Source: Thermoproteaceae archaeon
Lineage (GTDB): Archaea > Thermoproteota > Thermoprotei > Thermoproteales > Thermoproteaceae
Reading direction: 5' to 3'
Assembly: GCA_020833025.1 (NCBI GenBank)
Contig: JAJHRB010000012.1
Coordinates: forward strand, 1 to 30,386
Length of the DNA: 30,386 nt
Every line of letters begins with the position of its first letter. The first letter of the stretch is position 1. The position numbers and the translations under genes were made by a program. Shown in pieces: positions 1 through 12,120 of this stretch. The notes beneath the pieces are model-generated. The model saw nothing but the letters and a program-made list of their open reading frames with translations. It made no database searches and had not been told where the DNA came from.

Positions 1-209
1 TGGGACCTGGACGCGAGGAGCAGCGCGCTGGTGAGGAGAGTTCTCGAGACGCCGCTTGACGGCAGCGGGGGCAGGCGTGACGGCTCCTGCGGATTGAGCA
101 CGGCGCTTCCGCCGGCGCCGCGGCCGGGCTGATCGCAAGCGGGATCCGGGCGCTCTGGAGGGAGCTGAGCGGGAGGTAAGCCCCCTTTTTACGTGGCCGG
201 TTCCCCGAT

Positions 210-515
210 ATGCGCGGGCTGCCGCGCGGCATGAGAGGGGGGGCCTACAGAACGCTAGTGCTCAAGTACGACATCCTCGGGCTGCCGCCGGAGGTGCAGC
301 AGAAAATCCCCGCGCTTCTGAGGGCGCAGGAGGAGTTCAGGAGGTGGGCGGCGGAGTGGGCTAAAAGCGGCGGCAAAGTACCGATGCCGGAGGAAAACCC
401 GCTGAGATATCTCGCGCACAAGTTCATTCTCGCGTACAGCGCGCTGAAGTGGCTGAGGGGGCGAGCAATTAAACACGGCATGAAGGTACCGCTGATTCTC
501 AGCGCTCAGCTGAGA
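210..515 (+). pseudogene. 5' fragment of a TnpB-like (IS200/IS605 OrfB-related, Thermoproteales zinc-ribbon type) gene, truncated after ...PLILSAQLR
   Basis: The N-terminus YRTLVLKYDI-LPPEVQQKIPALLRAQEEFRRWA-NPLRY resembles, from memory, the Pyrobaculum TnpB-like family. After AQLR the frame runs into antisense mqnC and has no RuvC or zinc-ribbon motifs. T-rich TATA-like box at 186-192. Confidence 0.6.
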
Positions 516-877
516 CCGAACAGCTCGCGGAACAGCCTCTCGAAGTACTCAATGCCTATTTCCGGGTTCACGCCCCCCTGCACGAGCACTTGGCTGATGC
601 CGTAAACGGCGTCGACTGCCAGAACCCTCCTGACGGCCTCCTCGACAGTGTAAGTGTAGGCCTCGGGGTGTCCCGGAGGCCTGTAGAAGGCGCAGAAGCT
701 GCAGCCGACAGTGCAGACGTTTGTGTAGTTCAGCACCATGTTAGACACAAAGGTCGCGATCCTGCCGTGCATCCTCAGCCTGATCTCGAACGCGCGCCTG
801 CCCAGCTCCCACAAGTCCTCCCTCAGCAGCTCCTCTATCTCCTCACGCCTCGGCACTCCCGGCCTGCCTGCGTCCAC
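506..877 (-). pseudogene. mqnC: 5' fragment (about 117 codons) of cyclic dehypoxanthine futalosine synthase (radical SAM)
   Basis: NYTNVCTVGCSFCAFYR (CxxxCxxC) and VLVQGGVNPE are MqnC-like. The frame stops at FERLFR-ELFGLS*, about one third of the expected length. GTG start at 877. Confidence 0.82.
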
Positions 878-893
878 GAGCTCGCCGGGCCAC

Positions 894-901
894 GGATAAA
901 A
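894..901. promoter_or_regulatory. Probable shared TATA element of divergent mqnC/mqnE
   Basis: GATAAAAG is the only AT-rich patch in the 45-nt gap, about 20-28 nt from both GTG starts (877 on -, 923 on +). Confidence 0.4.
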
Positions 902-922
902 GGGCAGCGCGCCGGGAGCCCG

Positions 923-2002
923 GTGGTCTCGACTCAGGAGGTTCTCGAAATGGCGTCGAGAGGGCTCGACAGGTCAGACGCGCTTTACTTGATGAGGGAG
1001 GCGGACATCTTCACGCTCGCGCATGCCGCGGAGGTTCTGACGAGGAAGTTCTTCGGCGACGTTGTAACGTTCGTCAACAACGTCGTTGTGAACTACACCA
1101 ACATCTGCGTCGCCAGGTGCCCGATATGTGCCTTCTCAAGGCCGCCGGGACACAGAGAGGGCTACGTCAAGAGGCCAGAGGTGGTGGCCGCGGCGGCGGA
1201 GCGGCTCGCGCGGGAGCTGGGAGCCACCGAGCTGCACCTGAACGGCGGGCTCAATCCCGAGCTGGCCCCGGAGTACTTTGACGAGCTCTTCCGCTCGGTC
1301 AAGACGAGGGCCCCGCGCGTGGCGATCAAGGGCCCGACGCTGGCCGAGGCCGTCTTCTACGCCAAGGCGTGGCGCGTGAGCGTGAGGGAGGTGCTGTCCA
1401 GGTGGAGAGATGCAGGCCTCGACGCGATATCGGGCGGCGGCGCCGAGATCTTCGCGCCGGAGGTCAGGAAAGTGATAGCGCCGGGCAAGGCAACGGGCGA
1501 GGAGTGGCTTGACGCGGCCAGAGCTGCACACGAGCTCGGCATACCGACAAACGCCACAATGCTCTACGGGCACGTGGAGAGGGGGGAGCACGTGGTGGAC
1601 CACCTGTTTCACATCAAGGAGCTTCAGGAAAGGACCGGCGGCTTCCTGCTCTTCATACCTGTGAAGTTCAACCCGGGAAATACCGAGCTCTACGCTAGGG
1701 GCCTCGTTAAGTCGCCGGCGCCCGCGACGTACGACGTCAGAGTGACCGCAATCGCGCGCCTGATACTCCTAGGCGGGCTCAAGGTGGGCGCCTACTGGCT
1801 GTCAGTCGGCAAGAGGCTTGCCTCCACGCTCCTCCTCGCCGGCGCAAACGACCTGGTGGGCACCATGTACAACGAGGCGGTGCTGGCGTCAGCCGGCGCT
1901 AGGCACGGCGCGACGCCCGAGGAGCTGGCGGCAATAGCGCGCGAGGCCGGCAAGCTGCCGGCCCTCCGCGACACCTTCCACAGGGTGATCGCAGTGCTGT
2001 GA
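923..2002 (+). CDS. mqnE: Aminofutalosine synthase (radical SAM, futalosine menaquinone pathway)
   Basis: NYTNICVARCPICAF (CxxxCxxC), LHLNGGLNPEL, GGGAEIF and TNATMLYGHVE are MqnE-type. Start is likely GTG 923; the ORF-track extension 590-922 is antisense mqnC. Confidence 0.85.
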   Translation: MVSTQEVLEMASRGLDRSDALYLMREADIFTLAHAAEVLTRKFFGDVVTFVNNVVVNYTNICVARCPICAFSRPPGHREGYVKRPEVVAAAAERLARELGATELHLNGGLNPELAPEYFDELFRSVKTRAPRVAIKGPTLAEAVFYAKAWRVSVREVLSRWRDAGLDAISGGGAEIFAPEVRKVIAPGKATGEEWLDAARAAHELGIPTNATMLYGHVERGEHVVDHLFHIKELQERTGGFLLFIPVKFNPGNTELYARGLVKSPAPATYDVRVTAIARLILLGGLKVGAYWLSVGKRLASTLLLAGANDLVGTMYNEAVLASAGARHGATPEELAAIAREAGKLPALRDTFHRVIAVL

Positions 2003-2064
2003 GCTCGCGCCTGCAGGGATGCCAGGCGCGCCCGAAAGCTAAAAAATAGATGAGGACGTGCACA

Positions 2065-2505
2065 GTGTCGTCTCAAGAGGCACAGGCCAAGGAGGGCGGG
2101 GAGGCGCAGCAGAAAAAGAAGAAGATGGCCGTAGTCGTATTCTCGGGAAGCCTCGACCGCCTGACGGGCGTCGCGATGCTCGTGAGCGGCGCGGTGGCGA
2201 TGGAGTACAACGTGGAGCTGTACTTAATGCTGTGGGCCGTCCACGCGTTCAAGAAGGAGAACGTAGGGAAGATCACGCACCTCAGCGAGTTCAAGGAGTT
2301 CGAGCCCGAGATGGCAAAGAGGCTTAACTGGTACGACCTAATCAAGCGGGCAAAGAAGCTTGGGAGCGTGAAAATTTACGCGTGCGCCGGCTCGGCCGCC
2401 GTCTGGAACGTCATACCCGAGGACCTAGAGCTGGTGGACGGCATAATCGGCGTGGGCGAGATAGTCGAGAGGCTGGCCGAGGCGGACGTTGCTTTATTTG
2501 TGTAG
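2065..2505 (+). CDS. dsrE: DsrE/DsrF/DrsH-like (DsrE2-type) sulfurtransferase
   Basis: VVVFSGSLDRL...VELYLMLWAV...KIYAC pattern with the conserved Cys. Start is uncertain (ATG 2050, GTG 2065 or ATG 2125). A-rich TATA-like box at 2039-2048. Confidence 0.72.
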   Translation: MSSQEAQAKEGGEAQQKKKKMAVVVFSGSLDRLTGVAMLVSGAVAMEYNVELYLMLWAVHAFKKENVGKITHLSEFKEFEPEMAKRLNWYDLIKRAKKLGSVKIYACAGSAAVWNVIPEDLELVDGIIGVGEIVERLAEADVALFV

Positions 2506-2519
2506 ACCCGCGCGGAGAC

Positions 2520-2789
2520 ATGGCCGAGGGACAGCTCCCTCCCGAGGAGCTGAGAAAGCTCAAGCCGGACAAGGTGGTTGACGCCAGGGGGGTGGCATGC
2601 CCGGGACCGCTGCTCGCCGCGAAGCAGGCAATAACCGAGGTGCCGGTGGGCGGGGTACTGGAGGTCCTGTCGTCAGACCCGGGGACGAAGAGGGACCTGC
2701 CGCTCTGGGCCAAGAAGACAGGCCACGTATTCCTCGGCGTGATTGAGGAGAGGGGGTACTGGCGCCTCTTCGTCAAGAGAATGAAATGA
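2520..2789 (+). CDS. tusA: TusA-family sulfur carrier protein
   Basis: VDARGVACPGPLL (CPxP motif), LEVLSSDPGTKRDLPLW; GGAG RBS before ATG 2520. Confidence 0.9.
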   Translation: MAEGQLPPEELRKLKPDKVVDARGVACPGPLLAAKQAITEVPVGGVLEVLSSDPGTKRDLPLWAKKTGHVFLGVIEERGYWRLFVKRMK

Positions 2790-3187
2790 CTCGCGCGCCC
2801 CAAATACTTGTCTTTACCACAAGCACGATCTCAGACCCCGGCGTGGCTTCTGCCGGCCTCATGCGCCTGAAGTATCCCCCGCAGACGGCTATCATCAGGG
2901 TGCCGTGCTCGTCAATGATAAGGCCGGAGTGGATAGTGCTGGCCATAGAGAGCGGCTTTGACGGGGTGTTCGTAGCGGCAGACGGCACTGACTGCCCCTA
3001 CTTGAGGGACTGCACGGAGAGGACTGCGAGAGGGGTAGAGGCCGCGCAGAAGATTCTGGCCAGCAGGGGCGTGGAGCCCGAGAGAGTCAGAATGGCGGCG
3101 GTGTGCTCGGTGTGCGGCGAGGCGTTCGTCAGAATAATAAATGACTTCTTCAACGCGCTGAGCCGGCTCGGGCCCGTGAGGCTATGA
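2786..3187 (+). CDS. mvhD: MvhD/FlpD-like [2Fe-2S] subunit, variant Cys pattern
   Basis: IIRVPCSS-IRPEW-GFDGVFV-DCPY-GVEPERV matches the MvhD scaffold. ATGA overlaps with tusA and the next gene. Confidence 0.8.
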   Translation: MTRAPQILVFTTSTISDPGVASAGLMRLKYPPQTAIIRVPCSSMIRPEWIVLAIESGFDGVFVAADGTDCPYLRDCTERTARGVEAAQKILASRGVEPERVRMAAVCSVCGEAFVRIINDFFNALSRLGPVRL

Positions 3188-4518
3188 TGATGCAGAAAAT
3201 TCTTGAGAGGGCGGAGGCGGCAGGAGAGCAGCTGTCTTACGACGCGGTCGTGATAGGCGGCGGCATAGCCGGCATGGAGGCCTCGCTGAGCCTGGCAGAC
3301 ATGGGCTACAGGGTCTTGCTGGTCGAGAGGGAGCCCACGATTGGAGGCAAGATGTTCCTGCTGAGCAAGGTGTTCCCGACGCTCGACTGCGCCAGCTGCA
3401 TAGCAACGCCGAAGATGGCTGCCGCCGCGCGCCACCCCAACATAACCCTGTGGACGTACTCTGAGGTGAGGAGGGTGCGGGCTCTGGACAGGGGCGCGTT
3501 TGAAGTAGATATCTTGAGGAAGCCGAGATTCGTAAATGAATCTCTGTGTACTGGCTGCGGGCTTTGCGAGGATGCGTGCCCGGTGGTGGTTCCGAAGGAG
3601 CTGGACTTCGGGCTGAGGGGCAGGAAGGCAGTCTACATACCGCTCGACACGGCGGTTCCGAGGAAGGCCGTGGTGGACATAGACAACTGCATTCTCTGCG
3701 GGCAGTGCGAGAGGAGGTGCCCGGCGGGCGCTATAGACTTCACGCAGAAGCCCAGAGTCTACAGAGTCAGAGCGCGCGCGGTGGTGATAGCAACTGGCTG
3801 CAGGCCGTTCCCGGCCGAGCTCAAGGAGGCATACGGCTACGGCAGGACGCCTAACGTCATCACCGCGCTGCAGATGGAGAGATTGCTGGCCCCGACGAGG
3901 CCCTACAATGCAGTGCTGAGGCCCTCGGACGGGAGGGAGCCTGGCAATATCGGCTACGTGCTCTGCGCGGGCTCCAGGGACGTGACCGCGGGGAACCCGA
4001 GGTGCTCTCAGGTCTGCTGCATGTACTCAATAAAGCAGGCGCAGCTGCTGCTGGGCGCGCTGCCCCTTGCCGACGTGACGATTTACTACATGGACGTGAG
4101 GGCCTACGGGAAGGGCTTCGAGGAGTTCTACCAGAGGGCCAGGAGCATGGGCGTGAAATTCGTGAGGGGGAGAGTGGCAAGGATAGAGGGGCTCCCAAAC
4201 GGCGACGTGAGGGTAATGTACGAGGACGTCGAGGAGGGGAGGCTCAAGTCTGCGGTGCACGACCTAGTGGTGCTAGCGGTCGGCCTGCTCCCGGACAACG
4301 AGGTGCTAAAGGCATTTGAGGGCGTGACGATACACACCGACGAGCTCGGCTTCGTGAAGGTCGATCCCGAGGACCCTGTCAGGACAAATGTCGAGGGGGT
4401 GTTTGCAGCGGGGTGCATAACGGGCCCGAAGGACATCCCGGACACGATACTAGAGGCCGCCGCGGCGGCAATGCGGTGCGCCGCCTTCCTGAAGGAGGTC
4501 GAGGCGCGGCAAACATGA
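3184..4518 (+). CDS. hdrA: HdrA-family flavoprotein, short QmoA-like form
   Basis: GGGIAG FAD motif, KVFPTLDCASC, inserted 2x CxxCxxCxxxCP ferredoxin, CAGSRD...CSQVCCMYSIK, GVFAAGCITGPKDIPDTI. Confidence 0.88.
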   Translation: MMMQKILERAEAAGEQLSYDAVVIGGGIAGMEASLSLADMGYRVLLVEREPTIGGKMFLLSKVFPTLDCASCIATPKMAAAARHPNITLWTYSEVRRVRALDRGAFEVDILRKPRFVNESLCTGCGLCEDACPVVVPKELDFGLRGRKAVYIPLDTAVPRKAVVDIDNCILCGQCERRCPAGAIDFTQKPRVYRVRARAVVIATGCRPFPAELKEAYGYGRTPNVITALQMERLLAPTRPYNAVLRPSDGREPGNIGYVLCAGSRDVTAGNPRCSQVCCMYSIKQAQLLLGALPLADVTIYYMDVRAYGKGFEEFYQRARSMGVKFVRGRVARIEGLPNGDVRVMYEDVEEGRLKSAVHDLVVLAVGLLPDNEVLKAFEGVTIHTDELGFVKVDPEDPVRTNVEGVFAAGCITGPKDIPDTILEAAAAAMRCAAFLKEVEARQT

Positions 4519-6473
4519 CGGGCGGCGGGGTGAGAATAGGCGTTTACGTCTGCCACTGCGGCGGCAATATCTCAGACACGGTGGATGTCAAGAGAGTCGT
4601 CGAGGAGGTCGGAAAGGAGCCCGGCGTCGTGACAGCCGTGGACTTCCCCTTCATGTGCTCGGAGGCCGGCCAGAAGCTCGTAGAGGACGACGTAAGGAGC
4701 GGGAGGGTGAACGCAGTGGTTGTGGCCGCGTGCTCGCCCAGACTCCACGAGGCGACCTTCAGGGCGGCAATTTCCAGAGCCGGCGGGAACCCGTACATGT
4801 ACTACCACGTCGACATAAGGGAGGAGTGCTCCTGGGCTCACGAGGGCGACAGGGAGGGGGCAACGGAGAAGGCAATAAGGCATGTGAGGATGGCCGTGGC
4901 GTACTTGAGGCGCGCCGAGCCGCTCAGCAAGATCAAGGCCGCCAGCGAGAGGTCGGTGTTAGTAATTGGAGGGGGACTCGCCGGGCTGAGGGCCGCGCTG
5001 GACCTGGCAGAGGCGGGAGTTAGAGTATACCTCGTGGAGAGGTCGCCGTTTCTCGGCGGGAATGCCGCGAGGCTGGGCGCGCTGAAGGTATTCCCCTACG
5101 GGAGGCCTGCCATCGACATTGTGAGGTCGCTGATAGGGAAGCTGGTCGGCAGGAGAGAAGTCACCATATTTACAAATGCCGAGGTCGAGGCGGTGTCCGG
5201 CTACATCGGGAATTTTGACGTGCGGATTAAGGTCTGGCCGCGCTACTTCAAGGGCAAGTGCGCCGGGGATCTGGCCAGAGTCTGTCCCAAGAGGGCCCGG
5301 GACGAGTTCTACTTCGGGGTTGCGGAGAGAACGGCAATACTGCTCCCGCCATTTGAGGGGGCCTACCCCGACATACCAGCGATAGACATCAACCTGTGCG
5401 ACAGGTGCGGCCTCTGCGCCAAGGCGTGCCCGAGCGTTGACCTGAGCCAGGAGCCGCAGACCGTCAGCGTGAGAGTGGGCGCGATAATCGCGGCCACCGG
5501 CTTCAGGCCCTACGCCCCCAGGAACGGCGAGTGCGGCCGCGGGCTTCCCGGCGTAATTACACTGCACGAGCTCGTTGGGGCCCTCAACAAGTTCGGCGGC
5601 ATTAGGGTCGACGGCAGGGCGCCGGAGAGCGCCGTGTTCATCTACTGCGTCGGGAGCAGGCAGAGGAGGGCAGGCGGCGAGGGGGCCAACGAGTACTGCT
5701 CGAGGTACTGCTGCATAGCCGCGCTAGACGCCGCGCTCCACTTGCGCGAGCTGCTGCCGGGCGTCAGGATATACCACGTCGCGAGGGATATCAGGTCATA
5801 CGGCGTCAACGAGCTGCTGTACGAGGCGGCGGGCAGGCTAGGGGACGTTTTCGTGAAGTATAGCGAGGAGGCGCCGCCCCGGGTGGAGCGCCAGGGCGAC
5901 AAGCTGGTCGTCAGGGTGAGAGACGTTCTGACCGAGAGCGTCGAGCTGGAGATCCCCGCGGACCTGGTAGTCCTCGTCACCGGAATGGAGCCGTCAGACG
6001 GGACGGCGGCCATCGCCGAGAGGCTTAAGCTCCAGAGGGGTCCGGACGGGTTCCTGCAGGAGGTGCACCCGAAGCTCAAGCCCGTCGAGACCGCGCTGGG
6101 CGGGATATTCATAGCGGGCACGGCGCAGGCGCCGCGGGGAGTGGCGGAGACCCTCGCGTCAGCGTCCGCGGCCGCGGCGAGGGCCGCCTCGCTAGTGCTC
6201 AGGGGATACGTCGAGCTGGAGCCGTTTGTCGCTTACGTTGATGCCTCTAAGTGCAACGCCTGCGAGGCCTGCATTTCTGAGTGCCCGTACGGCGCCATCG
6301 AGATCGTGAGGGCGGGCTCCCGCGAAGTTGCAAGCGTTAACGAGGCGCTCTGCAAGGGGTGCGGCGCGTGCATTCCCGCGTGCCCGAACTCTGCAATACA
6401 GCTGAGGGGGCTCACTAGCGCCCAGATAGAGGACATGATCAGGTCCGCGCTGGGGCATGGGCGAAGCGCCTAG
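4515..6473 (+). CDS. hdrA: HdrA-family flavoprotein, long form (N-terminal domain, FAD domain, C-terminal 2x[4Fe-4S])
   Basis: GVYVCHCGGNI, CSEAGQ, AACSPRLHE, IREECSW, GGGLAG, CVGSRQ...CSRYCC, and C-terminal CNACEACISECP / CKGCGACIPACP. ATG 4515 overlaps the previous stop (ATGA). Confidence 0.88.
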   Translation: MTGGGVRIGVYVCHCGGNISDTVDVKRVVEEVGKEPGVVTAVDFPFMCSEAGQKLVEDDVRSGRVNAVVVAACSPRLHEATFRAAISRAGGNPYMYYHVDIREECSWAHEGDREGATEKAIRHVRMAVAYLRRAEPLSKIKAASERSVLVIGGGLAGLRAALDLAEAGVRVYLVERSPFLGGNAARLGALKVFPYGRPAIDIVRSLIGKLVGRREVTIFTNAEVEAVSGYIGNFDVRIKVWPRYFKGKCAGDLARVCPKRARDEFYFGVAERTAILLPPFEGAYPDIPAIDINLCDRCGLCAKACPSVDLSQEPQTVSVRVGAIIAATGFRPYAPRNGECGRGLPGVITLHELVGALNKFGGIRVDGRAPESAVFIYCVGSRQRRAGGEGANEYCSRYCCIAALDAALHLRELLPGVRIYHVARDIRSYGVNELLYEAAGRLGDVFVKYSEEAPPRVERQGDKLVVRVRDVLTESVELEIPADLVVLVTGMEPSDGTAAIAERLKLQRGPDGFLQEVHPKLKPVETALGGIFIAGTAQAPRGVAETLASASAAAARAASLVLRGYVELEPFVAYVDASKCNACEACISECPYGAIEIVRAGSREVASVNEALCKGCGACIPACPNSAIQLRGLTSAQIEDMIRSALGHGRSA

Positions 6474-6750
6474 GAGGGAGCTGACATCCGAAAGACTGAG
6501 GAGGGAGCTAAACTTTCAGGTGCCCGAGGAGCTGGCCCGCCGCGTGAGGGAAGCCGCCGCCATACGGGCCAAAATACTGAAGTGCCTGGAGGGCAGGGAG
6601 ATGACAGTCAGGGAAATAGCGAGAGAGGCGGGCATTCCCGAGAGCGTGGTGTTCTGGCACTTGATGACAATGTACAAGTACAACCTCGTCGAGCCGGCGG
6701 AGAAGACAGAGGACGGCCTTTACAAGTACAGGCTTAAGCGCGGGCGGTGA
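6457..6750 (+). CDS. Small winged-helix (ArsR-like) DNA-binding protein inside the hdr operon
   Basis: RAKILKCL-EMTVREIAREAGIPESVVFWHL-LVE-YKYRL HTH and wing pattern. Overlaps both neighbours. Confidence 0.7.
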   Translation: MGEAPRRELTSERLRRELNFQVPEELARRVREAAAIRAKILKCLEGREMTVREIAREAGIPESVVFWHLMTMYKYNLVEPAEKTEDGLYKYRLKRGR

Positions 6751-7853
6751 GGGTCGACCACAGGCTTGCAGACGAGCTGAGAGAGCTCGGCGCGCGGAAC
6801 ATATCCCAGTGTTACAGCTGCGGCGTCTGCACGGCAATCTGCCCGCTGTCTGAGGAGGGGCGCGAGATCCCCCGGAGGATGGTCAGGTACGCCGTGCTCG
6901 GCCTGAGGGACAGGCTGGAGAGAAGCCTGGAGCCGTGGCTGTGTTACTACTGCGGCGAGTGCACCAAATCGTGCCCCCGGGGCGCGGATCCCGGGGCCCT
7001 CATGATGGCCGTCCGGAGGTACTTGATAACGCGGTACGACTTCACGGGCATATCGAGAGTGCTGTACAGGTCGCCGCTCGCCGAGGCGCTCCTCGCGGCG
7101 GCGCTGTTCCTGGCGGTGGTGCTGGGAGTTTACTTCCTCCACGGCCCCGTGAATCTCGAGAGAGTGGACATGGAGTCCTTCCTGCCGGCGGGCGTGGTTG
7201 ACGCCGCCGACATAGCCGTCGCCGCGACTCTCGCGTCACTGCTCCTCGCGAACGCCTACAGGATGTACAGGCTGACGCGCAGGGGCCCGAGGCTCCCTCT
7301 TACCGCCTATATTACGGAGCTCGTCAAGACCGTGCCGCCGCACTTCTTCACGCAGCTCAGAATGCTGAAGTGCAGGGGGAGCGTGAGGGACTGGGTCATG
7401 CACGCTCTGACGGCGTACGGGTACGGGATCGTGTTCGTGCTAGTCGTGCTGTTCCTGCGCGCGATACACGCCGGGGTCTACCCCGCGGCGCACCCGCTGA
7501 GGCTGGCGGGCTACGTGGCCTCGGCATTGCTGCTCGCCGGCGCGGGCTACGCGATTTACGGGCGCGCGAGGAGGAGCTCGGTCGCGAGGCAGTACTCGCA
7601 CCCCACGGACTGGCTCTTCTTAATACTGCTGCTCCTGACAACGCTTACAGGAGTGGCGCTCCACGTCTTCAAGTACCTGAACATGCCCCTAGAGGCGTAC
7701 GTGTGCTACGCTGTGCACCTGGGGCTTGCAGCGCCTCTGCTAATCCTGGAGGTGCCGTTCGCTAAGTGGTCGCACATAGCGTACAGGCCCCTGGCGATAT
7801 ACTTCGCGAGGCTTAACGAGCTGAGGGCACGCCGGCTCCAGCCCTCCCCGTGA
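6747..7853 (+). CDS. QmoC-like protein: HdrC-like 2x[4Fe-4S] domain fused to a multi-pass, probably heme-b, membrane domain
   Basis: CYSCGVCTAICP and CYYCGECTKSCP, then about 6 hydrophobic helices with His residues (VMHAL, ALHVF, AVHLG, FAKWSHIAYRP). Confidence 0.8.
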   Translation: MRVDHRLADELRELGARNISQCYSCGVCTAICPLSEEGREIPRRMVRYAVLGLRDRLERSLEPWLCYYCGECTKSCPRGADPGALMMAVRRYLITRYDFTGISRVLYRSPLAEALLAAALFLAVVLGVYFLHGPVNLERVDMESFLPAGVVDAADIAVAATLASLLLANAYRMYRLTRRGPRLPLTAYITELVKTVPPHFFTQLRMLKCRGSVRDWVMHALTAYGYGIVFVLVVLFLRAIHAGVYPAAHPLRLAGYVASALLLAGAGYAIYGRARRSSVARQYSHPTDWLFLILLLLTTLTGVALHVFKYLNMPLEAYVCYAVHLGLAAPLLILEVPFAKWSHIAYRPLAIYFARLNELRARRLQPSP

Positions 7854-8198
7854 GCCCAGCTCCAGCTCTCCGCACCCTCCTTTGCGCGCCCCTTGGGCGC
7901 GACGCCTTACACTTAACCGAGCTGCTTCTGCCTCCCTTTCGCGACCGTTGAATTAGCGCAGAGGCCCCTCCCTAAGCCCGGCGGCGCCGCCTGCGCCGGG
8001 GCGAGACTTCTAGAGGCGGAGGCCACGACGGCCTAGCTCTGCGGGCCGGAAACGCGCTGACGGGAAGTCGCCAGGCGCGCCGAGACCCTCAAGGGCCGCG
8101 TGAGGTGGGGCGAGAGGCTGGAGAGGGCGCTGGGGAGCGAAGGAAGCTCTGGCGCGCTATGCCCCTTGATCCCAGCCGCGCCTCGCGACTGCCGCGGC

Positions 8199-8684
8199 CT
8201 ACTGCAGTGCGGATAGGTACTTCTCCACCGCTGCCACGAGCCTCTCTACGTCTCTCCTAGCCTCCTCCTCCGTCCTGTACCTGCTGAAAATGCCCTCCCG
8301 GTCGGGCCCGTTGTACTGGAGCTCGTGCAGGTCGAGCGCGATCAGAGTGTAGTACAGCACCTCCTCTCCGTACCTTCCCGCCAGGAGCTGCGCCACCGAC
8401 CTGACCCGCGTCGTGGGCATTAGCGCTGCAATCCAGTACGCCTCCTTGAGCGCCCTGCCGTCTCTCGTCCTCCTCACTCCGGGAAACGCTCCTTCCAGCA
8501 GGTCGAGAGACTTCGCCGCGAGCCCGGCCAGAACGGCCTTCCACGCCTGCCACGCCTTCCCCGCCGCGTTCCTCACGAGGCCCTCCTCCAGGAAGCGCCT
8601 GGCGAGCTCTGCCTCGCACCTTGCCTCGGCGGAGCGGGTCCTTACATAGCCCTCGAGACTCACCCACGGCTTGACCAGCTCCAC
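8199..8684 (-). CDS. PaREP1-family (HEPN-like) protein
   Basis: KPW-Y-R-EA-EAELA-FLEEGLVRNAAGKAWQAWKA...ALDLHELQYNGPD. GTG 8684 lies 22-28 nt after an AAATATA box. Confidence 0.8.
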   Translation of the reverse strand: MELVKPWVSLEGYVRTRSAEARCEAELARRFLEEGLVRNAAGKAWQAWKAVLAGLAAKSLDLLEGAFPGVRRTRDGRALKEAYWIAALMPTTRVRSVAQLLAGRYGEEVLYYTLIALDLHELQYNGPDREGIFSRYRTEEEARRDVERLVAAVEKYLSALQ

Positions 8685-8898
8685 CGCCGGTCTCAATGCG
8701 GCCCGTATATTTTTCCTTGCGCGCCGGCCCGCCATTAGCCAGGCGCGCGGCTTTGCGATGCTCATAAGGCGTTTTCCTGGCGCGTGGCGGCGTGGCCAGT
8801 CGCGTTAGCGCTCGCCGCGCTGGCAGTAGCGGCGCCCCAGCACGGCGGGAGCGGGCAAGCCGTACGCGCTCGCCGCCTTCTGGAATTTACAATCAGCA

Positions 8899-8932
8899 AA
8901 AGCCTCGCCCTTTAGGGCGGGGAGGAGGGCAG
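8899..8932 (+). mobile_element. Orphan IS200/IS605-type right-end hairpin (non-autonomous remnant)
   Basis: AAAGCCTCGCCC-TTTA-GGGCGGGGAGGAG has an 8-bp stem (8903-8910/8915-8922, one G-U pair). It matches from memory the AAGCCCCGCCCTTTAGGGCGGGGAGGAG right end of archaeal tnpB elements and translates as KPRPLGRGGG. No tnpA or tnpB is adjacent. Confidence 0.55.
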
Positions 8933-9001
8933 GTCCTCTGGAGGGTGCACTGCATATCGTCGCGGCGTGGCGGAACCGTGAGCTGCAAGTAGGCGTGCCG
9001 G

Positions 9002-9334
9002 CTACTTGACCCTGACCCAGTATCTCTCCGCGTCTCTCAGCGCGGCGCTCCTCTGCCTGGCCTCCTCGAACTCCTCCGGAGTGTACGGCAGGACCTCCAC
9101 CCACTTCTCGAGCCCCAGCCTGACCTGCAGCCTGGCCACGAGGTCGAGCCTGTCCAGCCACCTAATCCCCGCGAAGTCCGGCGAGACGACTACGAGGTCC
9201 ACGTCGCTGCTCTTGAGCCAGTCGCCCCTTGCATAGGAGCCGAAGAGGTAAGCCTCCGCGACTCTGAAGCCGGCGTCCTCCAGGGCCGAGAGAAGCCTAC
9301 TTACAATCTCTAAGATTTCCGGGGGTGCCCTCAT
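9002..9334 (-). CDS. Minimal nucleotidyltransferase (MNT) antitoxin
   Basis: YLFGSYARGDWLKSSDVDLVVVS (GS-x10-DxD). Overlaps the upstream HEPN gene. Confidence 0.85.
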   Translation of the reverse strand: MRAPPEILEIVSRLLSALEDAGFRVAEAYLFGSYARGDWLKSSDVDLVVVSPDFAGIRWLDRLDLVARLQVRLGLEKWVEVLPYTPEEFEEARQRSAALRDAERYWVRVK

Positions 9335-9743
9335 AGCCTGCCCTGACCAGGAGCTCCTCGGCAATGCCTACCACAGCACCAGCCGTCTCCAGCGCCCTCT
9401 CGGCGTCTCCCCGCGTCACGGCCTCGAAGGGCTGCCCTGCCGCCGCGTCCGGGTATCTCGACACGGTGTAGAACTTGTTCAGCTCTGCCACGCGCACTTC
9501 CAGCTCCGGGCTGAAGTCCACGCCCGCCCTTTTCAACTCCCTGTAGAGCTCGGTGAGGACGTGCGTTCTGGGCGGCTCTGCCCTCAGCACGACGAAGAAC
9601 AGGCTCTTCAGCGCCTTCTCCGCCGCCTGGTGGCTGTAAAACGCGGCGGCGTTAAAGCGCCCGGCCGCGTGCAGTATCCGCGCGGTGCAGAGGTCGTGCC
9701 ACGCCTCGCGGATCCAGTACACGGCCTCGCGCCTGAGGGCCAC
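9297..9743 (-). CDS. HEPN-domain protein, MNT partner
   Basis: W-EA-DL-A...AAFYSHQAAEKALKS...PRTHVL...SRYPD. TATA-like TTAATATA about 25 nt upstream of GTG 9743. Confidence 0.85.
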   Translation of the reverse strand: MALRREAVYWIREAWHDLCTARILHAAGRFNAAAFYSHQAAEKALKSLFFVVLRAEPPRTHVLTELYRELKRAGVDFSPELEVRVAELNKFYTVSRYPDAAAGQPFEAVTRGDAERALETAGAVVGIAEELLVRAGYEGTPGNLRDCK

Positions 9744-9848
9744 GTGGCATCCTGAGGGATCGCTATATTAATGCGGCGCCCGCGGTGCGTGCCGCGGGCG
9801 AGCCAGATGGGGTCGCCGGCCCGGCCTTTGCGAGAAATCCAACTGTGG

Positions 9849-9970
9849 CATGTGGTCTTGGGCGCAGGCGACGCCAGGAGTAAAATAGAGGCGTTCAGAG
9901 CCGCGGGAGTGCCTGTGGCCGAGACGCCGTCTGAAGTGCCGCGCCTCCTAGCAAAAGCTCTCAGAAGGGA
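9849..9970 (+). pseudogene. sucD: 3' remnant of succinyl-CoA synthetase alpha subunit
   Basis: GAGDARSKIEAFRAAGVPVAETPSEVPRLLAKALR resembles the SucD C-terminus. The rest of the gene is absent. Confidence 0.5.
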
Positions 9971-10023
9971 GCAATCTCTCGGGAGGCAGGGCCCGGTTAG
10001 ACTGCGGGACGCAGGGCGCGCTG

Positions 10024-10086
10024 AATTGACATTGTTTATAATCTTCATTAAATTATTATTTCATTTGCAGTTAATGTTTTTATTTT
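10024..10086 (+). promoter_or_regulatory. AT-rich promoter region of mdh
   Basis: Only 10 G/C in 63 nt. Ends in TTTTTATTTT about 20-28 nt before ATG 10105. Confidence 0.5.
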
Positions 10087-10104
10087 GCCGCCTTGCTCCC
10101 CAGC

Positions 10105-11034
10105 ATGATAACAATAGTCGGGAGCGGGAGGGTTGGCACGGCCGCGGCGGCCATAATAGGCCTAATGAGGCTGGACGCGAGGATCGTGCTGATAGACATC
10201 GTGAGGGGGCTGCCCCAGGGAGAGGCCCTGGACTTAAACCACATGAGCTCCATATTGGGGCTCGACGTTGAGTACCTTGGCTCCAACGACTACAGGGACA
10301 TGGCGGGCAGCGATCTCGTCATCGTGACCGCGGGCCTCCCCAGAAAGCCCGGCATGACCAGAGAGGAGCTGCTGGAGTCAAACGCGAAGATAGTCCACGA
10401 GATAGGCAGGGAGATCAGGAGGCACGCGCCCGACTCGGTGGTCATCCTGACCACGAACCCTCTCGACGCGATGACGTACGTCATGTGGAGGGCGACGGGG
10501 CTCCCGAGGGAGAGGGTCATAGGCTTCAGCGGAGTGCTCGACGCCGGCCGCATGGCCTACTACGCCGCGAGGAGGATCGGCATTTCTCCCGCGTCCGTCA
10601 CGGCAGTGGTACTGGGGCAGCACGGCGAGAGCATGCTCCCGGTGCCCGGCAAGAGTTTCGTGCACGGAGTGCCTCTCAGCAGGCTGCTGACGGAGGAGCA
10701 GCTGAGGGAGGTCGTGGAGGAGACCGTGAGGGCCGGCGCCAGGATCACGGAGCTGAGGGGCTTCTCGTCGAACTGGGGCCCCGGCGCGGGTCTCGCGCTG
10801 ATGGCCTACGCCGTCAAGCGGGACGCGAGGAGAGTGCTGATAGCGTCGGTGGTCCTGCAGGGAGAGTACGGGGTGCACGGCGTGCCGGTTGAGGTGCCTC
10901 TAGTGCTCGGCAGGGGCGGCGTGCTGAGAGTACTGGAGCTGGAGCTCACGCCGGAGGAGAGGCAGAAGTTCGCGGAGAGCGTGGAGGCCGTCAGGAGGCT
11001 CATCGCGCAGATACCGCCCGCCTACCTCCAGTGA
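10105..11034 (+). CDS. mdh: Malate dehydrogenase (LDH-like MDH)
   Basis: ITIVGSGRVG, LIDIV, GEALDL, TAGLPRKPGMTR (specificity Arg), TNPLD, GVLDAGR, GQHG. Confidence 0.92.
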   Translation: MITIVGSGRVGTAAAAIIGLMRLDARIVLIDIVRGLPQGEALDLNHMSSILGLDVEYLGSNDYRDMAGSDLVIVTAGLPRKPGMTREELLESNAKIVHEIGREIRRHAPDSVVILTTNPLDAMTYVMWRATGLPRERVIGFSGVLDAGRMAYYAARRIGISPASVTAVVLGQHGESMLPVPGKSFVHGVPLSRLLTEEQLREVVEETVRAGARITELRGFSSNWGPGAGLALMAYAVKRDARRVLIASVVLQGEYGVHGVPVEVPLVLGRGGVLRVLELELTPEERQKFAESVEAVRRLIAQIPPAYLQ

Positions 11035-11247
11035 GCTGCTGCCGCGCCGGCGCACTGCCTATCTGCCGCGGCGCGCTTTTGCCCGCGGGCTGCCCCGGCG
11101 CAGCGCCTTTAGAGCTGCTCCCGCCGGCCCACGGGGAGCGCCCGCTCGCTATCGAGCGCCTGCGGCAGTGCGGCTGGCTCCAGCCCGCGCTCAGGAAAAT
11201 CGCGGAGGCCGGAATGAGGCGACGTGGAGAATAATGCCGGGGGCCTG

Positions 11248-11270
11248 GAATCTTAGGGAAGGATTGAAAT
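11248..11270 (+). repeat. Solitary degenerate copy of the CRISPR repeat
   Basis: GAATCTTA-GGGAAGGATTGAAAT versus array repeat GAATCTCAAGAGAAGGATTGAAAG: 20/24 identical (3 mismatches, 1 gap), including an exact 12-mer. Confidence 0.6.
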
Positions 11271-12074
11271 GGACTCGCACTCGGGCGCGAGGCCGGCCTC
11301 TCTCGCGCGCTCAAGCAGCTCCTGCAGGGCCCGGGCGCCCGCCGCGCCGAGGTCGCGCGTATAGGCATTAACGTACATGTCGACAAAGCGCGCCGTCTCC
11401 TCGAGCGAGAGGCCGCGGGAGAACCTCTGCGCGTGCCTCAGCGCCTCTTCCCTGTGCGCGTCCGCGTATTTAATCGACTCGGCGAGCGCGCGGGAGGCGG
11501 CCTCCGCCAGCTCCCTCCCCAGAGCCCTCCTCACTACGTTAAGGCCGAGTGGCAGCGGAAGGCCGGTCTCGCGCTTCCACCACTCGCCGAGGTCCAGCAG
11601 CGCCCTTAGGCCGCGCCGGCCGTAGGTGATCTGGCCCTCGTGGATGAGAACTCCCGCGTCGACGATGCCAGCCGTCACGGCGTCTGCTATCCTGTCGAAC
11701 GGCACCTCTACCACCCTGACTCCCGGCAGCGCCATTCTAAGCAGCAGCGCGGCGGTGGTGTAGCGGCCCGGCACGGCGACGACTCTAGGAGGCCCGGCGC
11801 CCCGCGCGACGAGCACGGGCCCGTAGCCGTCCCCGACCGACGCGCCGGCCCTGGCCACGAAGTACTCCCTGCACGCGTGCGCGTAGGCGTGCGCGCTGGC
11901 TGCAGAAACGTCCAAGAGGCCCTCTAACACGAGCCTGTTCAGCGTTTCGATGTCGGCGAGGAACTCGACGTGAGGCAGCGGGAGCCTCACGGCCCCCGCC
12001 GTTATGCCGTAAAACACGTAGGCGTCGTCCGCGTCAGGAGAGTGGCCTAGTCTGAGCGCGCCTCCTTGCGCCAC
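11253..12074 (-). CDS. mqnD: 1,4-dihydroxy-6-naphthoate synthase (MqnA/MqnD fold)
   Basis: LRLGHSPDADDAY-ADIETLN-GASVGDGYGP-VAVPG-TTA-FD-I-GVLIHEGQITY-DLGEWW-LPLPLG. Likely GTG start at 12074, 20-27 nt after TATAAAAG. Confidence 0.85.
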   Translation of the reverse strand: MAQGGALRLGHSPDADDAYVFYGITAGAVRLPLPHVEFLADIETLNRLVLEGLLDVSAASAHAYAHACREYFVARAGASVGDGYGPVLVARGAGPPRVVAVPGRYTTAALLLRMALPGVRVVEVPFDRIADAVTAGIVDAGVLIHEGQITYGRRGLRALLDLGEWWKRETGLPLPLGLNVVRRALGRELAEAASRALAESIKYADAHREEALRHAQRFSRGLSLEETARFVDMYVNAYTRDLGAAGARALQELLERAREAGLAPECESISILP

Positions 12075-12102
12075 GCCGTGGCGCAACGCGCCGCTTTTAT
12101 AC
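12066..12102. promoter_or_regulatory. Bidirectional TATA (12094-12102) plus a perfect 9-3-9 inverted repeat over the mqnD start
   Basis: TTGCGCCAC-GCC-GTGGCGCAA at 12066-12086. CTTTTATAC sits about 20-27 nt from both GTG starts (12074 on -, 12121 on +). Confidence 0.5.
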
Positions 12103-12120
12103 TTCAGCGCCGCGCAATGC

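What the first reader, a model, noticed from the sequence alone, without database searches (positions are those of the whole stretch)
2065..7853. Sulfur-carrier-linked Hdr/Qmo-like membrane redox module with no recognisable partner enzyme
Seen: seven co-oriented, mostly overlapping genes, dsrE-tusA-mvhD-hdrA(short)-hdrA(long)-wHTH-[HdrC plus heme-b-type membrane]. Established: QmoABC (two HdrA-like subunits plus an HdrC-membrane fusion) normally serves AprAB. DsrE and TusA normally feed persulfide sulfur to sHdr systems that contain HdrB. Here the Qmo-like architecture is joined to DsrE/TusA, MvhD is a separate gene, and there is no hdrB, aprAB or hydrogenase in the window. Inference: a little-described complex couples the menaquinone pool to protein-bound persulfide (TusA/DsrE-SSH), possibly with flavin-based bifurcation. 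It could provide a cytoplasmic S0/polysulfide reduction or oxidation route, self-regulated by the internal wHTH.
Basis: partly seen in the sequence, partly recalled or inferred. Interest (0 to 1): 0.8.

Follow-up and report, generated by a model that had tools for sequence, protein, structure and literature searches.

The report
TusA/DsrE-linked HdrA-QmoC membrane complex
A hot-spring archaeon (a Pyrobaculum) carries a self-contained seven-gene operon for a membrane flavin/iron-sulfur/haem complex encoded with two small sulfur-carrier proteins. Its Vulcanisaeta counterpart is published as the "QmoABC" that enables archaeal sulfate reduction, but comparative evidence suggests the family works on carrier-bound sulfur rather than on APS reductase.

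Summary
Seven intact, co-oriented, mostly overlapping genes (2125-7853) encode DsrE2-like, TusA, MvhD, a short HdrA, a long HdrA, a 97-aa winged-helix protein and QmoC.

The core is not undescribed. It is the orthologue (QmoC 59-60% identical, same gene order) of the "type II QmoABC" of 'Ca. Vulcanisaeta moutnovskia'.

New findings:
- All six Vulcanisaeta/Caldivirga copies keep the dsrE-tusA-mvhD front end and the winged-helix gene.
- The module is missing from the 17 other Pyrobaculum species and from all 28 other genomes of the family.
- Both flavoproteins lie in a clade fully separate (100/100) from every aprBA-adjacent QmoA/QmoB.
- 31 of 44 other genomes with this build lack aprA, and 28 lack dsrA.
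- Ten of ten bacteria with both keep a separate qmoABC beside aprBA.

Caveat: this genome has aprBA-sat and dsrABC elsewhere, only this one Qmo-like set, and no molybdopterin reductase.

Best reading (about 0.5): menaquinone-linked redox of TusA/DsrE-bound sulfur. Main rival (about 0.3): electron donor to AprAB. The scan noted TusA/DsrE-Qmo-like operons 96 times in other genomes.

The parts
2125..2505 (+). DsrE2B-like sulfur-carrier protein. 126 aa from the ATG at 2125; the ORF is open from 2050.
   Evidence: Pfam PF13686/PF02635. Best solved relative is 2QS7 = SSO1126, a DsrE2B (E 3.5e-17; identity of 2QS7 from PMC4175335). Its single cysteine (C87) is conserved in 53 of 54 operon-linked homologues. 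50-53% identical to the Vulcanisaeta/Caldivirga copies.
2520..2789 (+). TusA sulfur carrier, 89 aa.
   Evidence: PF01206, 77 bits. The cysteine of the DARGxxCPxP motif is conserved in 56 of 62. It is the most conserved protein of the module: 81-84% identical to the Vulcanisaeta/Caldivirga copies. It is the only TusA found in this genome.
2786..3187 (+). MvhD-type [2Fe-2S] protein, 133 aa. It is the free-standing equivalent of the C-terminal domain of canonical QmoB and of HdrA2.
   Evidence: PF02662, 104.8 bits. It aligns to positions 646-774 of the NCBIfam HdrA2 model. An MvhD-like stretch follows the QmoB-like region in the aprBA-linked cluster of L139. aprBA-linked QmoB is about 740 aa, against about 670 aa for HdrA-long in this class.
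3184..4518 (+). HdrA-like flavoprotein, short form ('QmoA' of type II), 444 aa. It holds an FAD domain plus an inserted 2x[4Fe-4S] ferredoxin domain.
   Evidence: Matches solved methanogen HdrA at residues 127-560 (E 7e-118, 397 bits). Both CxxCxxCxxxCP motifs are kept. It falls in the T_s clade at 100/99 support.
4515..6473 (+). HdrA-like flavoprotein, long form ('QmoB' of type II), 652 aa. It has the N-terminal domain, FAD domain, inserted ferredoxin domain and C-terminal ferredoxin domain, but no MvhD domain.
   Evidence: Matches 5ODC_A HdrA residues 5-642 (E 3.4e-139, 468 bits). Only 25-32% identical to canonical QmoB regions. It falls in the T_l clade at 100/99 support. The start ATG at 4515 overlaps the preceding stop.
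6457..6750 (+). 97-aa ArsR/SmtB-fold winged-helix protein. It is a signature component of this operon class; whether it is a regulator or a subunit is open.
   Evidence: PF01022. A homologous ORF of about 95-105 aa lies between hdrA-long and qmoC in 44 of 46 TusA/DsrE-linked loci and in none of the compact aprBA-linked ones. The AF2 model has pLDDT 88 and its best fold matches are SmtB, NolR, CzrA and BigR. It has no conserved cysteine.
6747..7853 (+). QmoC-type subunit, 368 aa. It combines an N-terminal HdrC-like 2x[4Fe-4S] domain with a six-helix haem-b-type membrane domain.
   Evidence: NCBIfam qmoC matched over the full model, 177.7 bits, below the 300-bit cut-off. Eight invariant FeS cysteines and invariant His132/219/285/324/343. 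Six hydrophobic segments. 59-60% identical to WP_013605692.1 of V. moutnovskia and its cluster.

Best explanation
What it is (shown). This is a self-contained seven-gene operon: dsrE2-tusA-mvhD-hdrA(short)-hdrA(long)-wHTH-qmoC. It is the Pyrobaculum orthologue of the 'type II QmoABC' cluster of Vulcanisaeta and Caldivirga. It belongs to a widespread operon class in which two HdrA-type flavoproteins, a free MvhD, a small winged-helix protein and a QmoC-type haem-b/FeS membrane anchor are encoded with TusA and a DsrE2-like protein.

How it most likely works (inferred).
1. QmoC exchanges electrons with the menaquinone pool.
2. The electrons pass through its two [4Fe-4S] clusters to the HdrA pair and MvhD.
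3. The cognate substrates are the sulfur atoms carried on the conserved cysteines of TusA and DsrE2, as persulfide or thiosulfonate.
4. The likely direction is reductive, releasing sulfide (and sulfite if a thiosulfonate is carried).
5. A low-potential donor such as ferredoxin may confurcate at the HdrA flavin with menaquinol.

In this genome, which lacks every molybdopterin-type reductase, this would give a cytoplasmic route for sulfane-sulfur or thiosulfate reduction alongside DsrABC-DsrMK. The complex contains no HdrB-type catalytic subunit, so the site of S-S cleavage is unknown.
For: 1. Conserved linkage. The same seven genes in the same order occur in all six Vulcanisaeta/Caldivirga copies, while the flanking genes differ between genera. 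TusA is the most conserved product, at 81-84%.
2. Breadth. About 45 of 77 nearest QmoC loci carry tusA and/or dsrE beside mvhD-hdrA-hdrA-(wHTH)-qmoC. They come from Chloroflexota, Bacteroidota, Desulfobacterota, Planctomycetota, Verrucomicrobiota and Archaeoglobales.
3. Active sites. The carrier cysteines are conserved: TusA 56 of 62, DsrE 53 of 54.
4. Accessory genes. Bacterial versions add a YeeE/YedE sulfur transporter and rhodaneses.
5. Phyletic pattern. Of 44 TusA/DsrE-linked genomes searched, 31 lack aprA and 28 lack dsrA.
6. Non-redundancy. In 10 of 10 bacterial genomes with both the module and aprA, aprBA is followed by its own qmoABC. Ammonifex thiophilus likewise has an aprBA-qmoABC cluster plus a separate set of this type.
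7. Phylogeny. The flavoprotein tree splits this class from all aprBA-linked QmoA/QmoB at 100/100 support.
8. Within the order. 43 of 62 Thermoproteales genomes have aprA, including 9 Pyrobaculum species without the module. Two other genera carry a different, aprA-adjacent Qmo-type cluster and no TusA.
9. Metabolic context. This genome has no PF00384 enzyme, whereas 16 of its 17 congeners have 1-7.
Against: 1. No catalytic site for S-S reduction is encoded: no HdrB/CCG subunit and no conserved extra cysteine pair was identified.
2. The genome has sat-aprBA and dsrABC-MK, and this is its only Qmo-like set. Every Thermoproteales genome with the module that is complete enough also has aprA.
3. The orthologous cluster is the one to which published work on V. 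moutnovskia, including proteomics that I could not read, attributes sulfate reduction.
4. QmoC of this class is interleaved with aprBA-linked QmoCs, so the modules are interchangeable.
5. TusA genes also lie within about 20 kb of aprA in other Pyrobaculum genomes. TusA linkage therefore does not exclude a role in the Dsr/Apr pathway.
6. M. cuprina DsrE2B reacted with none of the sulfur compounds tested in vitro (PMC4175335).
7. Absence calls in metagenome-assembled genomes are not proof of absence.
Confidence: 0.5

Rival explanations
1. It is a true QmoABC ('type II') that passes menaquinol electrons to the separately encoded AprAB. This would make this Pyrobaculum a dissimilatory sulfate reducer like 'Ca. 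V. moutnovskia'. TusA, DsrE2 and the wHTH protein would be accessories, for example serving DsrC or regulation.
For: - It is orthologous to the V. moutnovskia cluster listed as QmoA/QmoB/QmoC (WP_013605695/4/2). That cluster is cited as the acquisition that enabled archaeal sulfate reduction.
- The genome holds sat-aprBA, dsrAB, DsrC and a DsrK-like CCG protein, only one Qmo-like set, no molybdopterin reductase and no haem-copper oxidase. Sulfate or sulfite respiration is therefore the only recognisable anaerobic respiration.
- The domain content equals QmoABC: QmoB corresponds to HdrA-long plus MvhD.
- QmoC clusters near the aprBA-linked QmoCs of Ammonifex and Desulfofundulus.
Against: - The module is not adjacent to aprBA in any of the 7 Thermoproteales copies.
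- aprA is common in relatives that lack the module.
- The flavoproteins lie outside the aprBA-linked QmoA/QmoB clade at 100/100 support.
- Most carriers of this build lack aprA.
- Carriers that have aprA keep a separate apr-adjacent qmoABC.
- V. souniana has the same cluster plus apr, sat and dsr, yet its sulfate reduction is called 'still controversial' (PMC9872577).
Confidence: 0.3
2. The complex works in the oxidative or disproportionating direction. Sulfane sulfur delivered by DsrE2/TusA is oxidised through DsrC/DsrAB run in reverse and then AprAB-Sat. The complex collects the electrons for menaquinone, possibly bifurcating part of them to ferredoxin.
For: - TusA and DsrE proteins are the established sulfur-delivery route in sulfur oxidisers. 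They are encoded next to Hdr-like genes in Sulfolobales (PMC4175335).
- A Cloacimonadota Hdr-TusA-rhodanese-transporter cluster was read as oxidative (PMC8542988).
- dsrABC and aprBA-sat are present here.
Against: - No terminal oxidase or nitrate reductase was found that could accept the electrons.
- No HdrB was found in the window. LbpA (the lipoate-binding protein of sHdr systems), DsrEFH and DsrL were not searched for.
- Most carriers are fermentative or anaerobic lineages without Dsr or Apr.
Confidence: 0.1
3. The complex is a general quinone/ferredoxin electron hub with no sulfur substrate. TusA and DsrE2 would serve cofactor or Fe-S biosynthesis, or regulate the complex, and the true partner docks on MvhD and is encoded elsewhere.
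For: - MvhD is an adaptor for varied partners in methanogen Hdr complexes (PDB titles).
- Some relatives lack TusA/DsrE: Ammonifex L149, and the archaeal qmoC-hdrA-hdrA-mvhD loci L047, L067 and L080.
Against: - TusA is the most conserved gene of the archaeal module.
- The linkage recurs across many phyla together with YeeE and rhodaneses.
- The carrier cysteines are conserved.
Confidence: 0.07

Closest known systems
'Type II QmoABC' of 'Ca. Vulcanisaeta moutnovskia' (Chernyh et al. 2020, not readable here; Neukirchen et al. 2023, PMC10504309; DiSCo, PMC8477390)
   Same: It is an orthologue. QmoC is 59-60% identical, HdrA-short 73-75% and HdrA-long 68-70%. The seven-gene order is identical, including the gene between 'QmoB' and 'QmoC'. 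The flavoproteins are HdrA-like rather than QmoAB-like, as published.
   Different: The host is a Pyrobaculum. None of the 17 other species of the genus, nor any Pyrobaculum or Thermoproteus in the 2023 survey table, has it. GC is 0.63 here against 0.43-0.47 in the other copies. The accessible papers list only QmoA/B/C. I did not find the dsrE2-tusA-mvhD-wHTH companions discussed.
Canonical QmoABC of sulfate reducers and green sulfur bacteria (aprBA-qmoABC)
   Same: It has the same overall domain set: two HdrA-derived flavoproteins, an MvhD-type module, and an HdrC domain fused to a haem-b membrane domain.
   Different: It is not next to aprBA. MvhD is a separate gene. There is an extra wHTH gene plus TusA and DsrE. 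The flavoproteins sit in a separate clade (100/100) and are only 25-40% identical. QmoC scores 177.7 bits against a 300-bit cut-off.
sHdr (HdrAB1B2C1C2-type) sulfur-oxidation system with DsrE3A-DsrE2B-TusA (Metallosphaera cuprina, PMC4175335)
   Same: An HdrA-type flavoprotein is encoded with TusA and a DsrE2B-like protein. The nearest solved DsrE relative is SSO1126, a DsrE2B.
   Different: There is no HdrB (CCG) subunit and no separate soluble HdrC in the operon. A membrane QmoC anchor and a second HdrA are present instead. LbpA and DsrE3A were not searched for.
Methanogen HdrABC-MvhAGD electron-bifurcating complex (PDB 5ODC and relatives)
   Same: HdrA-long aligns over nearly its whole length with solved HdrA (468 bits). 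HdrA-short aligns with the FAD and inserted ferredoxin domains (397 bits). MvhD is present as a separate subunit.
   Different: There is no HdrB and no adjacent hydrogenase or formate dehydrogenase. HdrC is fused to a membrane cytochrome-b domain. There are two different HdrA paralogues. The first Cys motif of the inserted ferredoxin domain of HdrA-long is degenerate.

Membership tests
Type II (HdrA-like) QmoABC, as defined by Chernyh 2020 and Neukirchen 2023 | Two adjacent flavoprotein genes that are closer to HdrA than to bacterial QmoA/QmoB | tested here: met
   They score 468 and 397 bits against solved HdrA. By comparison, they are 25-40% identical to, or score 54-265 bits against, aprBA-linked QmoA/B. 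They form a separate clade at 100/100.
Type II (HdrA-like) QmoABC, as defined by Chernyh 2020 and Neukirchen 2023 | A QmoC-type subunit (HdrC-like FeS domain fused to a haem-b membrane domain) orthologous to V. moutnovskia WP_013605692 | tested here: met
   59-60% identity over the full length to the 90% cluster that holds WP_013605692.1. Clade support is 100.
Type II (HdrA-like) QmoABC, as defined by Chernyh 2020 and Neukirchen 2023 | Functional coupling to AprAB in sulfate reduction | not testable with these tools
   aprBA-sat is in the genome but on another contig. The comparative data argue against an obligate coupling for the class.
Canonical QmoABC | Gene adjacency to aprBA | tested here: not met
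   aprBA-sat is on C37 and the module on C47. None of the 7 Thermoproteales copies is apr-adjacent.
Canonical QmoABC | QmoB of about 740-780 aa with a fused C-terminal MvhD-like domain | tested here: not met
   HdrA-long is 652 aa without that domain, and MvhD is a separate 133-aa gene.
Canonical QmoABC | Flavoproteins inside the QmoA and QmoB clades | tested here: not met
   Careful tree of 46 rows: QmoA-like 100/98, QmoB-like 100/100, and this class on the other side of a 100/100 branch.
Canonical QmoABC | QmoC reaching the NCBIfam equivalog cut-off (NF038018, 300 bits) | tested here: not met
   177.7 bits.
sHdr sulfur-oxidising heterodisulfide-reductase-like system | HdrB subunits with CCG domains (noncubane clusters) encoded in the cluster | tested here: not met
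   No CCG domain is in the window. The genome's three CCG proteins lie on C24, C8 and C65 in other contexts.
sHdr sulfur-oxidising heterodisulfide-reductase-like system | TusA and DsrE-family carriers encoded alongside | tested here: met
ArsR/SmtB persulfide-sensing repressors (BigR/SqrR type), considered for the wHTH protein | A pair of conserved sensing cysteines | tested here: not met
   There is one cysteine, kept in only 7 of 33 homologues. The fold is nevertheless ArsR/SmtB-like.

The most novel reading that the evidence does not exclude
The gene set published as the archaeal 'qmoABC', and credited with the independent origin of sulfate reduction in Crenarchaeota, may not be an APS-reductase partner at all. 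It may be a member of an uncharacterised respiratory enzyme class: a menaquinone-linked, HdrA-based oxidoreductase. Its electron acceptor would be sulfur bound to the carrier proteins TusA/DsrE2, cleaved without an HdrB-type site. In this molybdoenzyme-free Pyrobaculum it would be the cell's only route for respiring zero-valent sulfur or thiosulfate.
Probability: 0.3. Interest if true: 0.8.

Novelty: new member of a known kind. Interest (0 to 1): 0.6.

Why it matters
There are three reasons.

1. It extends the "type II Qmo" cluster to Pyrobaculum. Here it sits in a reduced genome with no molybdopterin reductase or oxidase. That gives either a new candidate archaeal sulfate reducer or a new sulfur-respiring route.

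2. The published Vulcanisaeta "qmoABC" turns out to be only the middle of a conserved seven-gene unit that includes TusA, DsrE2, MvhD and a winged-helix protein. Its flavoproteins belong to a clade whose members mostly live in genomes without Apr or Dsr. This bears directly on the current account of how archaeal sulfate reduction arose, and it is testable in the cultured strains V. moutnovskia and V. souniana.

3. The same class is widespread in anaerobic Chloroflexota, Bacteroidota, Desulfobacterota and Planctomycetota. Its substrate would therefore matter for anoxic sulfur cycling.

Tried and rejected
- Insertion site. I tried to fix it by comparing flanks with six complete Pyrobaculum genomes. 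Only mqnC is shared and nothing downstream is syntenic, so no insertion scar or direction of transfer could be shown.
- Shared regulatory box. I compared the regions upstream of dsrE and of aprB. Only TATA-like boxes were seen.
- wHTH as a persulfide sensor. Rejected, because it has no conserved cysteine. Its fold search gave only generic ArsR/SmtB matches.
- Co-transfer of TusA with the module. TusA is present in 1-7 copies in most Thermoproteales, so its phyletic pattern is uninformative.
- QmoC phylogeny as a functional marker. Rejected, because apr-linked and TusA-linked QmoCs interleave.
- My provisional 'type II-A' label for aprBA-linked loci whose QmoC resembles this class. Dropped for the flavoproteins after the tree placed them with canonical QmoA/B.
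- Rfam scan of the window: no hits.
- Chernyh et al. 2020 is not held, so its proteomic evidence was not checked.
- No solved QmoABC structure was found by sequence.

Full report
**1. Observation**

The + strand between 2050 and 7853 carries seven intact co-oriented genes.

Pfam and NCBIfam identify them as follows:
- a DsrE-family protein;
- TusA;
- MvhD/FlpD;
- a 444-aa HdrA-like protein covering model positions 126-563 of HdrA2;
- a long HdrA-like protein covering positions 1-641;
- an ArsR-type winged-helix protein of 97 aa;
- a QmoC-type protein, matched over the full qmoC model but below its cut-off (177.7 vs 300 bits).

Alignment with relatives and the DNA itself move three starts: DsrE to 2125, TusA to 2520 and HdrA-long to the ATG at 4515. 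With these starts, four junctions overlap by 4 nt and one by 17 nt. A TATA-like box lies just upstream, at about 2036-2049. This is one tightly coupled operon.

QmoC has eight invariant FeS cysteines, six hydrophobic segments and five invariant histidines.

The window holds no CCG/HdrB, AprAB or hydrogenase gene.

**2. The genome around it**

The window is contig C47 of a 1.56-Mb, 94%-complete Pyrobaculum-type assembly.

Elsewhere in the genome:
- aprB-aprA-sat-DUF6955 on C37;
- dsrAB, DsrC and a CCG protein on C24;
- a [NiFe] hydrogenase next to an HdrD-like protein on C65.

A BLAST of the seven proteins against all ORFs of the genome finds no second HdrA/QmoC set and no second TusA or DsrE.

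The genome has no PF00384 molybdopterin oxidoreductase, whereas 16 of its 17 congeners have 1-7. It also has no haem-copper oxidase and no YeeE.

**3. Identity with a published cluster**

Neukirchen et al. (PMC10504309) describe a 'type II' QmoABC whose A and B subunits are closer to HdrA. It was first reported in 'Ca. V. moutnovskia' and Ammonifex. [quoted passage not shown]

Their table lists V. moutnovskia WP_013605692 (QmoC), WP_013605694 (QmoB) and WP_013605695 (QmoA), with one unlisted gene between C and B.

A search of 62 Thermoproteales genomes finds full-length relatives of the window's QmoC in only six genomes of another family. One of them has a contig of 2,298,983 bp. An exact-cluster look-up ties that protein to WP_013605692.1 of V. 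moutnovskia 768-28, and its cluster-mate to V. souniana.

All six copies have the same seven-gene order. Identities to the window are:

| Protein | Identity |
|---|---|
| TusA | 81-84% |
| MvhD | 70-74% |
| HdrA-short | 72-75% |
| HdrA-long | 67-70% |
| wHTH | 54-60% |
| QmoC | 54-60% |
| DsrE | 50-53% |

The genes flanking the unit differ between Vulcanisaeta, Caldivirga and the window, so the seven genes are the conserved unit.

No other genome of the window's genus (0 of 17) or family (0 of 28) has it. No Pyrobaculum or Thermoproteus in the 2023 survey table has a Qmo entry either.

The module's GC is 0.63, like its host, against 0.43-0.47 in the other copies. In the trees the window is sister to the Vulcanisaeta-Caldivirga group. 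Old transfer and differential loss are both possible. I could not show the direction.

**4. Does it serve AprAB?**

*Within the order.* aprA occurs in 43 of 62 genomes, including 9 Pyrobaculum species that lack the module. AprAB therefore exists there without it. Two other genera have a different, aprA-adjacent cluster: an HdrC-like gene, then a QmoB-like flavoprotein 52% identical to Ammonifex QmoA, then a cytochrome-b part. No TusA was found in those genomes.

*Across prokaryotes.* A scan of species-representative genomes gave 80 loci. ORF-level annotation sorts them into two main builds.
- TusA/DsrE-linked, about 45 of 77 loci with a full QmoC: tusA-mvhD-hdrA-hdrA-(wHTH)-qmoC-dsrE, or with dsrE in front. 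HdrA-long is about 670 aa. A homologous ORF of about 100 aa lies before qmoC in 44 of 46.
- aprBA-linked: aprB-aprA-qmoA-qmoB (about 740 aa)-qmoC, with none of tusA, dsrE, free mvhD or the small ORF.

*Phyletic pattern.* Of 44 TusA/DsrE-linked genomes, 13 have aprA and 16 have dsrA. None of the Chloroflexota in the set has aprA.

*Non-redundancy.* In all ten bacterial genomes with both the module and aprA that I opened, aprBA is followed by its own qmoABC. Ammonifex thiophilus has an aprBA-qmoABC cluster and also a separate mvhD-hdrA-hdrA-wHTH-qmoC set. This fits the published remark that both its QmoCs are type II.

*Flavoprotein tree.* A careful tree of 46 rows has four clean groups: T-short, T-long, QmoA-like and QmoB-like. 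A 100/100 branch separates this class from every apr-linked flavoprotein (72-row quick tree).
- Groups were defined by gene neighbourhood and subunit length, not by sequence.
- Three loci without a detected tusA (L045, L047, L080) were counted with this class.
- Three loci without aprA in the fetched range (L070, L071, L113) were counted with the apr-linked set.
- The trees are unrooted.

*QmoC tree.* QmoC behaves differently: apr-linked and TusA-linked QmoCs interleave. The membrane anchor has evidently been exchanged between the two kinds of complex.

**5. What the parts say**

- HdrA-long matches solved methanogen HdrA over nearly its whole length (E 3.4e-139). The N-terminal cluster motifs are conserved and one Cys motif in the inserted ferredoxin domain is degenerate.
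- HdrA-short matches the FAD and inserted ferredoxin domains (E 7e-118) and keeps both Cys motifs.
- MvhD corresponds to the C-terminal domain of HdrA2 and of QmoB.
- The DsrE protein is nearest to SSO1126 (PDB 2QS7). Liu et al. identify that protein as DsrE2B, the partner of DsrE3A and TusA in the Sulfolobales hdr cluster.
- The single cysteines of TusA and DsrE are conserved across the class.
- Bacterial versions add YeeE/YedE, rhodaneses and a separate ArsR gene upstream of tusA.
- The internal wHTH protein folds like ArsR/SmtB repressors but has no conserved cysteine. It is translationally coupled on both sides. Whether it is a regulator or a subunit remains open.

**6. Weighing the readings**

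The class-level evidence points to TusA/DsrE-bound sulfur as the cognate partner: conserved cis-linkage, conserved active-site cysteines, sulfur-trafficking accessories, absence of Apr and Dsr in most carriers, coexistence with a separate apr-linked Qmo, and a distinct flavoprotein clade.

Where an Apr-linked complex uses a QmoC of this kind, TusA, DsrE and the wHTH are absent and MvhD is fused. This suggests that AprAB and the carriers are alternative partners.

I therefore favour menaquinone-linked redox of carrier-bound sulfane sulfur or thiosulfonate. The direction is probably reductive, possibly with confurcation at the HdrA flavin. My confidence is about 0.5.

The mechanism has a gap: no HdrB-type site is encoded.

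The main rival, at about 0.3, is that in Thermoproteales the complex feeds AprAB, as published. It is favoured by this genome's content: sat-aprBA, dsrABC, one Qmo-like set and no other recognisable terminal reductase. It is also favoured by the V. moutnovskia work, which I could not read. It is weakened by the points above and by the V. souniana note, which says the strain has 'qmoABC' with apr, sat and dsr, yet its sulfate reduction is 'still controversial'.

An oxidative role (about 0.1) lacks an electron sink here. A substrate-free hub role (about 0.07) does not explain the conservation of TusA.

**7. Novelty**

The core is a known kind, type II Qmo, and this is a new member in a new genus.

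I did not find the following in the papers I could search, apart from a passing mention of an Hdr-TusA-rhodanese-transporter cluster in Cloacimonadota:
- the conserved dsrE2-tusA-mvhD-wHTH companions of the archaeal cluster;
- the clean separation of its flavoproteins from all apr-linked Qmo;
- the phyletic pattern of the class.

This scan has already noted TusA/DsrE-Qmo-like operons 96 times in at least 82 other genomes. One of those notes supplied the lead to the type II literature.

Noticed in passing
window 26217-30318: A CRISPR array with 63 copies of GAATCTCAAGAGAAGGATTGAAAG (62 exact) at a spacing of about 62-70 bp. It runs nearly to the contig end and explains the low-GC, ORF-poor stretch.
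   Followed up: partly
whole genome G000: No molybdopterin oxidoreductase (PF00384) and no haem-copper oxidase (PF00115) were found in this 94%-complete assembly, whereas 16 of the 17 other species of the genus have 1-7 molybdopterin enzymes. This looks like a respiratory repertoire reduced to Dsr/Apr, this module and a hydrogenase.
   Followed up: partly
window 590-2002 and 11253-12185; 8199-9743: The module sits between two futalosine-pathway menaquinone genes: an MqnC-like radical SAM gene (true start near residue 110 of the ORF) and a VitK2_biosynth-family gene. A PaREP1 gene and a HEPN/nucleotidyltransferase pair lie in between. In six other Pyrobaculum genomes nothing downstream of mqnC is syntenic.
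   Followed up: partly
G000 contig C37 (L005) 2101-6427; L140: aprB-aprA-sat is followed by a DUF6955 gene. The same sat-DUF6955-aprBA neighbourhood occurs in an Archaeoglobales genome, with DUF6955 52% and Sat 56% identical.
   Followed up: no
L141 (G003) 7246-13516; L142 (G016) 6823-12246: Two other Thermoproteales genera have a different apr-adjacent Qmo-type cluster. aprA (about 1000 bits to the aprA model) is followed by an HdrC-like gene of about 90 aa, then one QmoB-like flavoprotein of about 800 aa, and in G003 a separate cytochrome-b part. No TusA was found in these genomes.
   Followed up: partly
L040 (G027), L042/L044 (G028), L043 (G030): Several Vulcanisaeta copies of the module are interrupted. 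In G028, qmoC has 3 TAA stops, hdrA-long is in pieces and mvhD is truncated. In G027, mvhD and hdrA-short read as one ORF and hdrA-long is split. In G030, qmoC is split. This could be decay or assembly error; it is unresolved.
   Followed up: no
L149 (Ammonifex thiophilus) 3-13032: A second Qmo-like set, mvhD-hdrA-hdrA-wHTH-qmoC, has no tusA or dsrE nearby. An AprA-like flavoprotein (33% identical to the window genome's AprA) lies about 7 kb away. The aprBA-qmoABC cluster of the same genome is elsewhere, at L074.
   Followed up: partly
window 6747-7853 (QmoC residue 209); window 4515-6473: An invariant cysteine (C209) lies in the loop before the third membrane helix of QmoC in all 17 aligned homologues. 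In HdrA-long, the first CxxCxxCxxxCP motif of the inserted ferredoxin domain is degenerate compared with solved HdrA.
   Followed up: no
L059 5133-5477 and 11922-12959; L051 5244-5564; L064 65-1469: Bacterial versions of the operon carry a second ArsR-family gene directly upstream of tusA. They also carry a YeeE/YedE sulfur transporter between an extra tusA and dsrE (Chloroflexota), or two rhodanese genes (Bacteroidales).
   Followed up: partly
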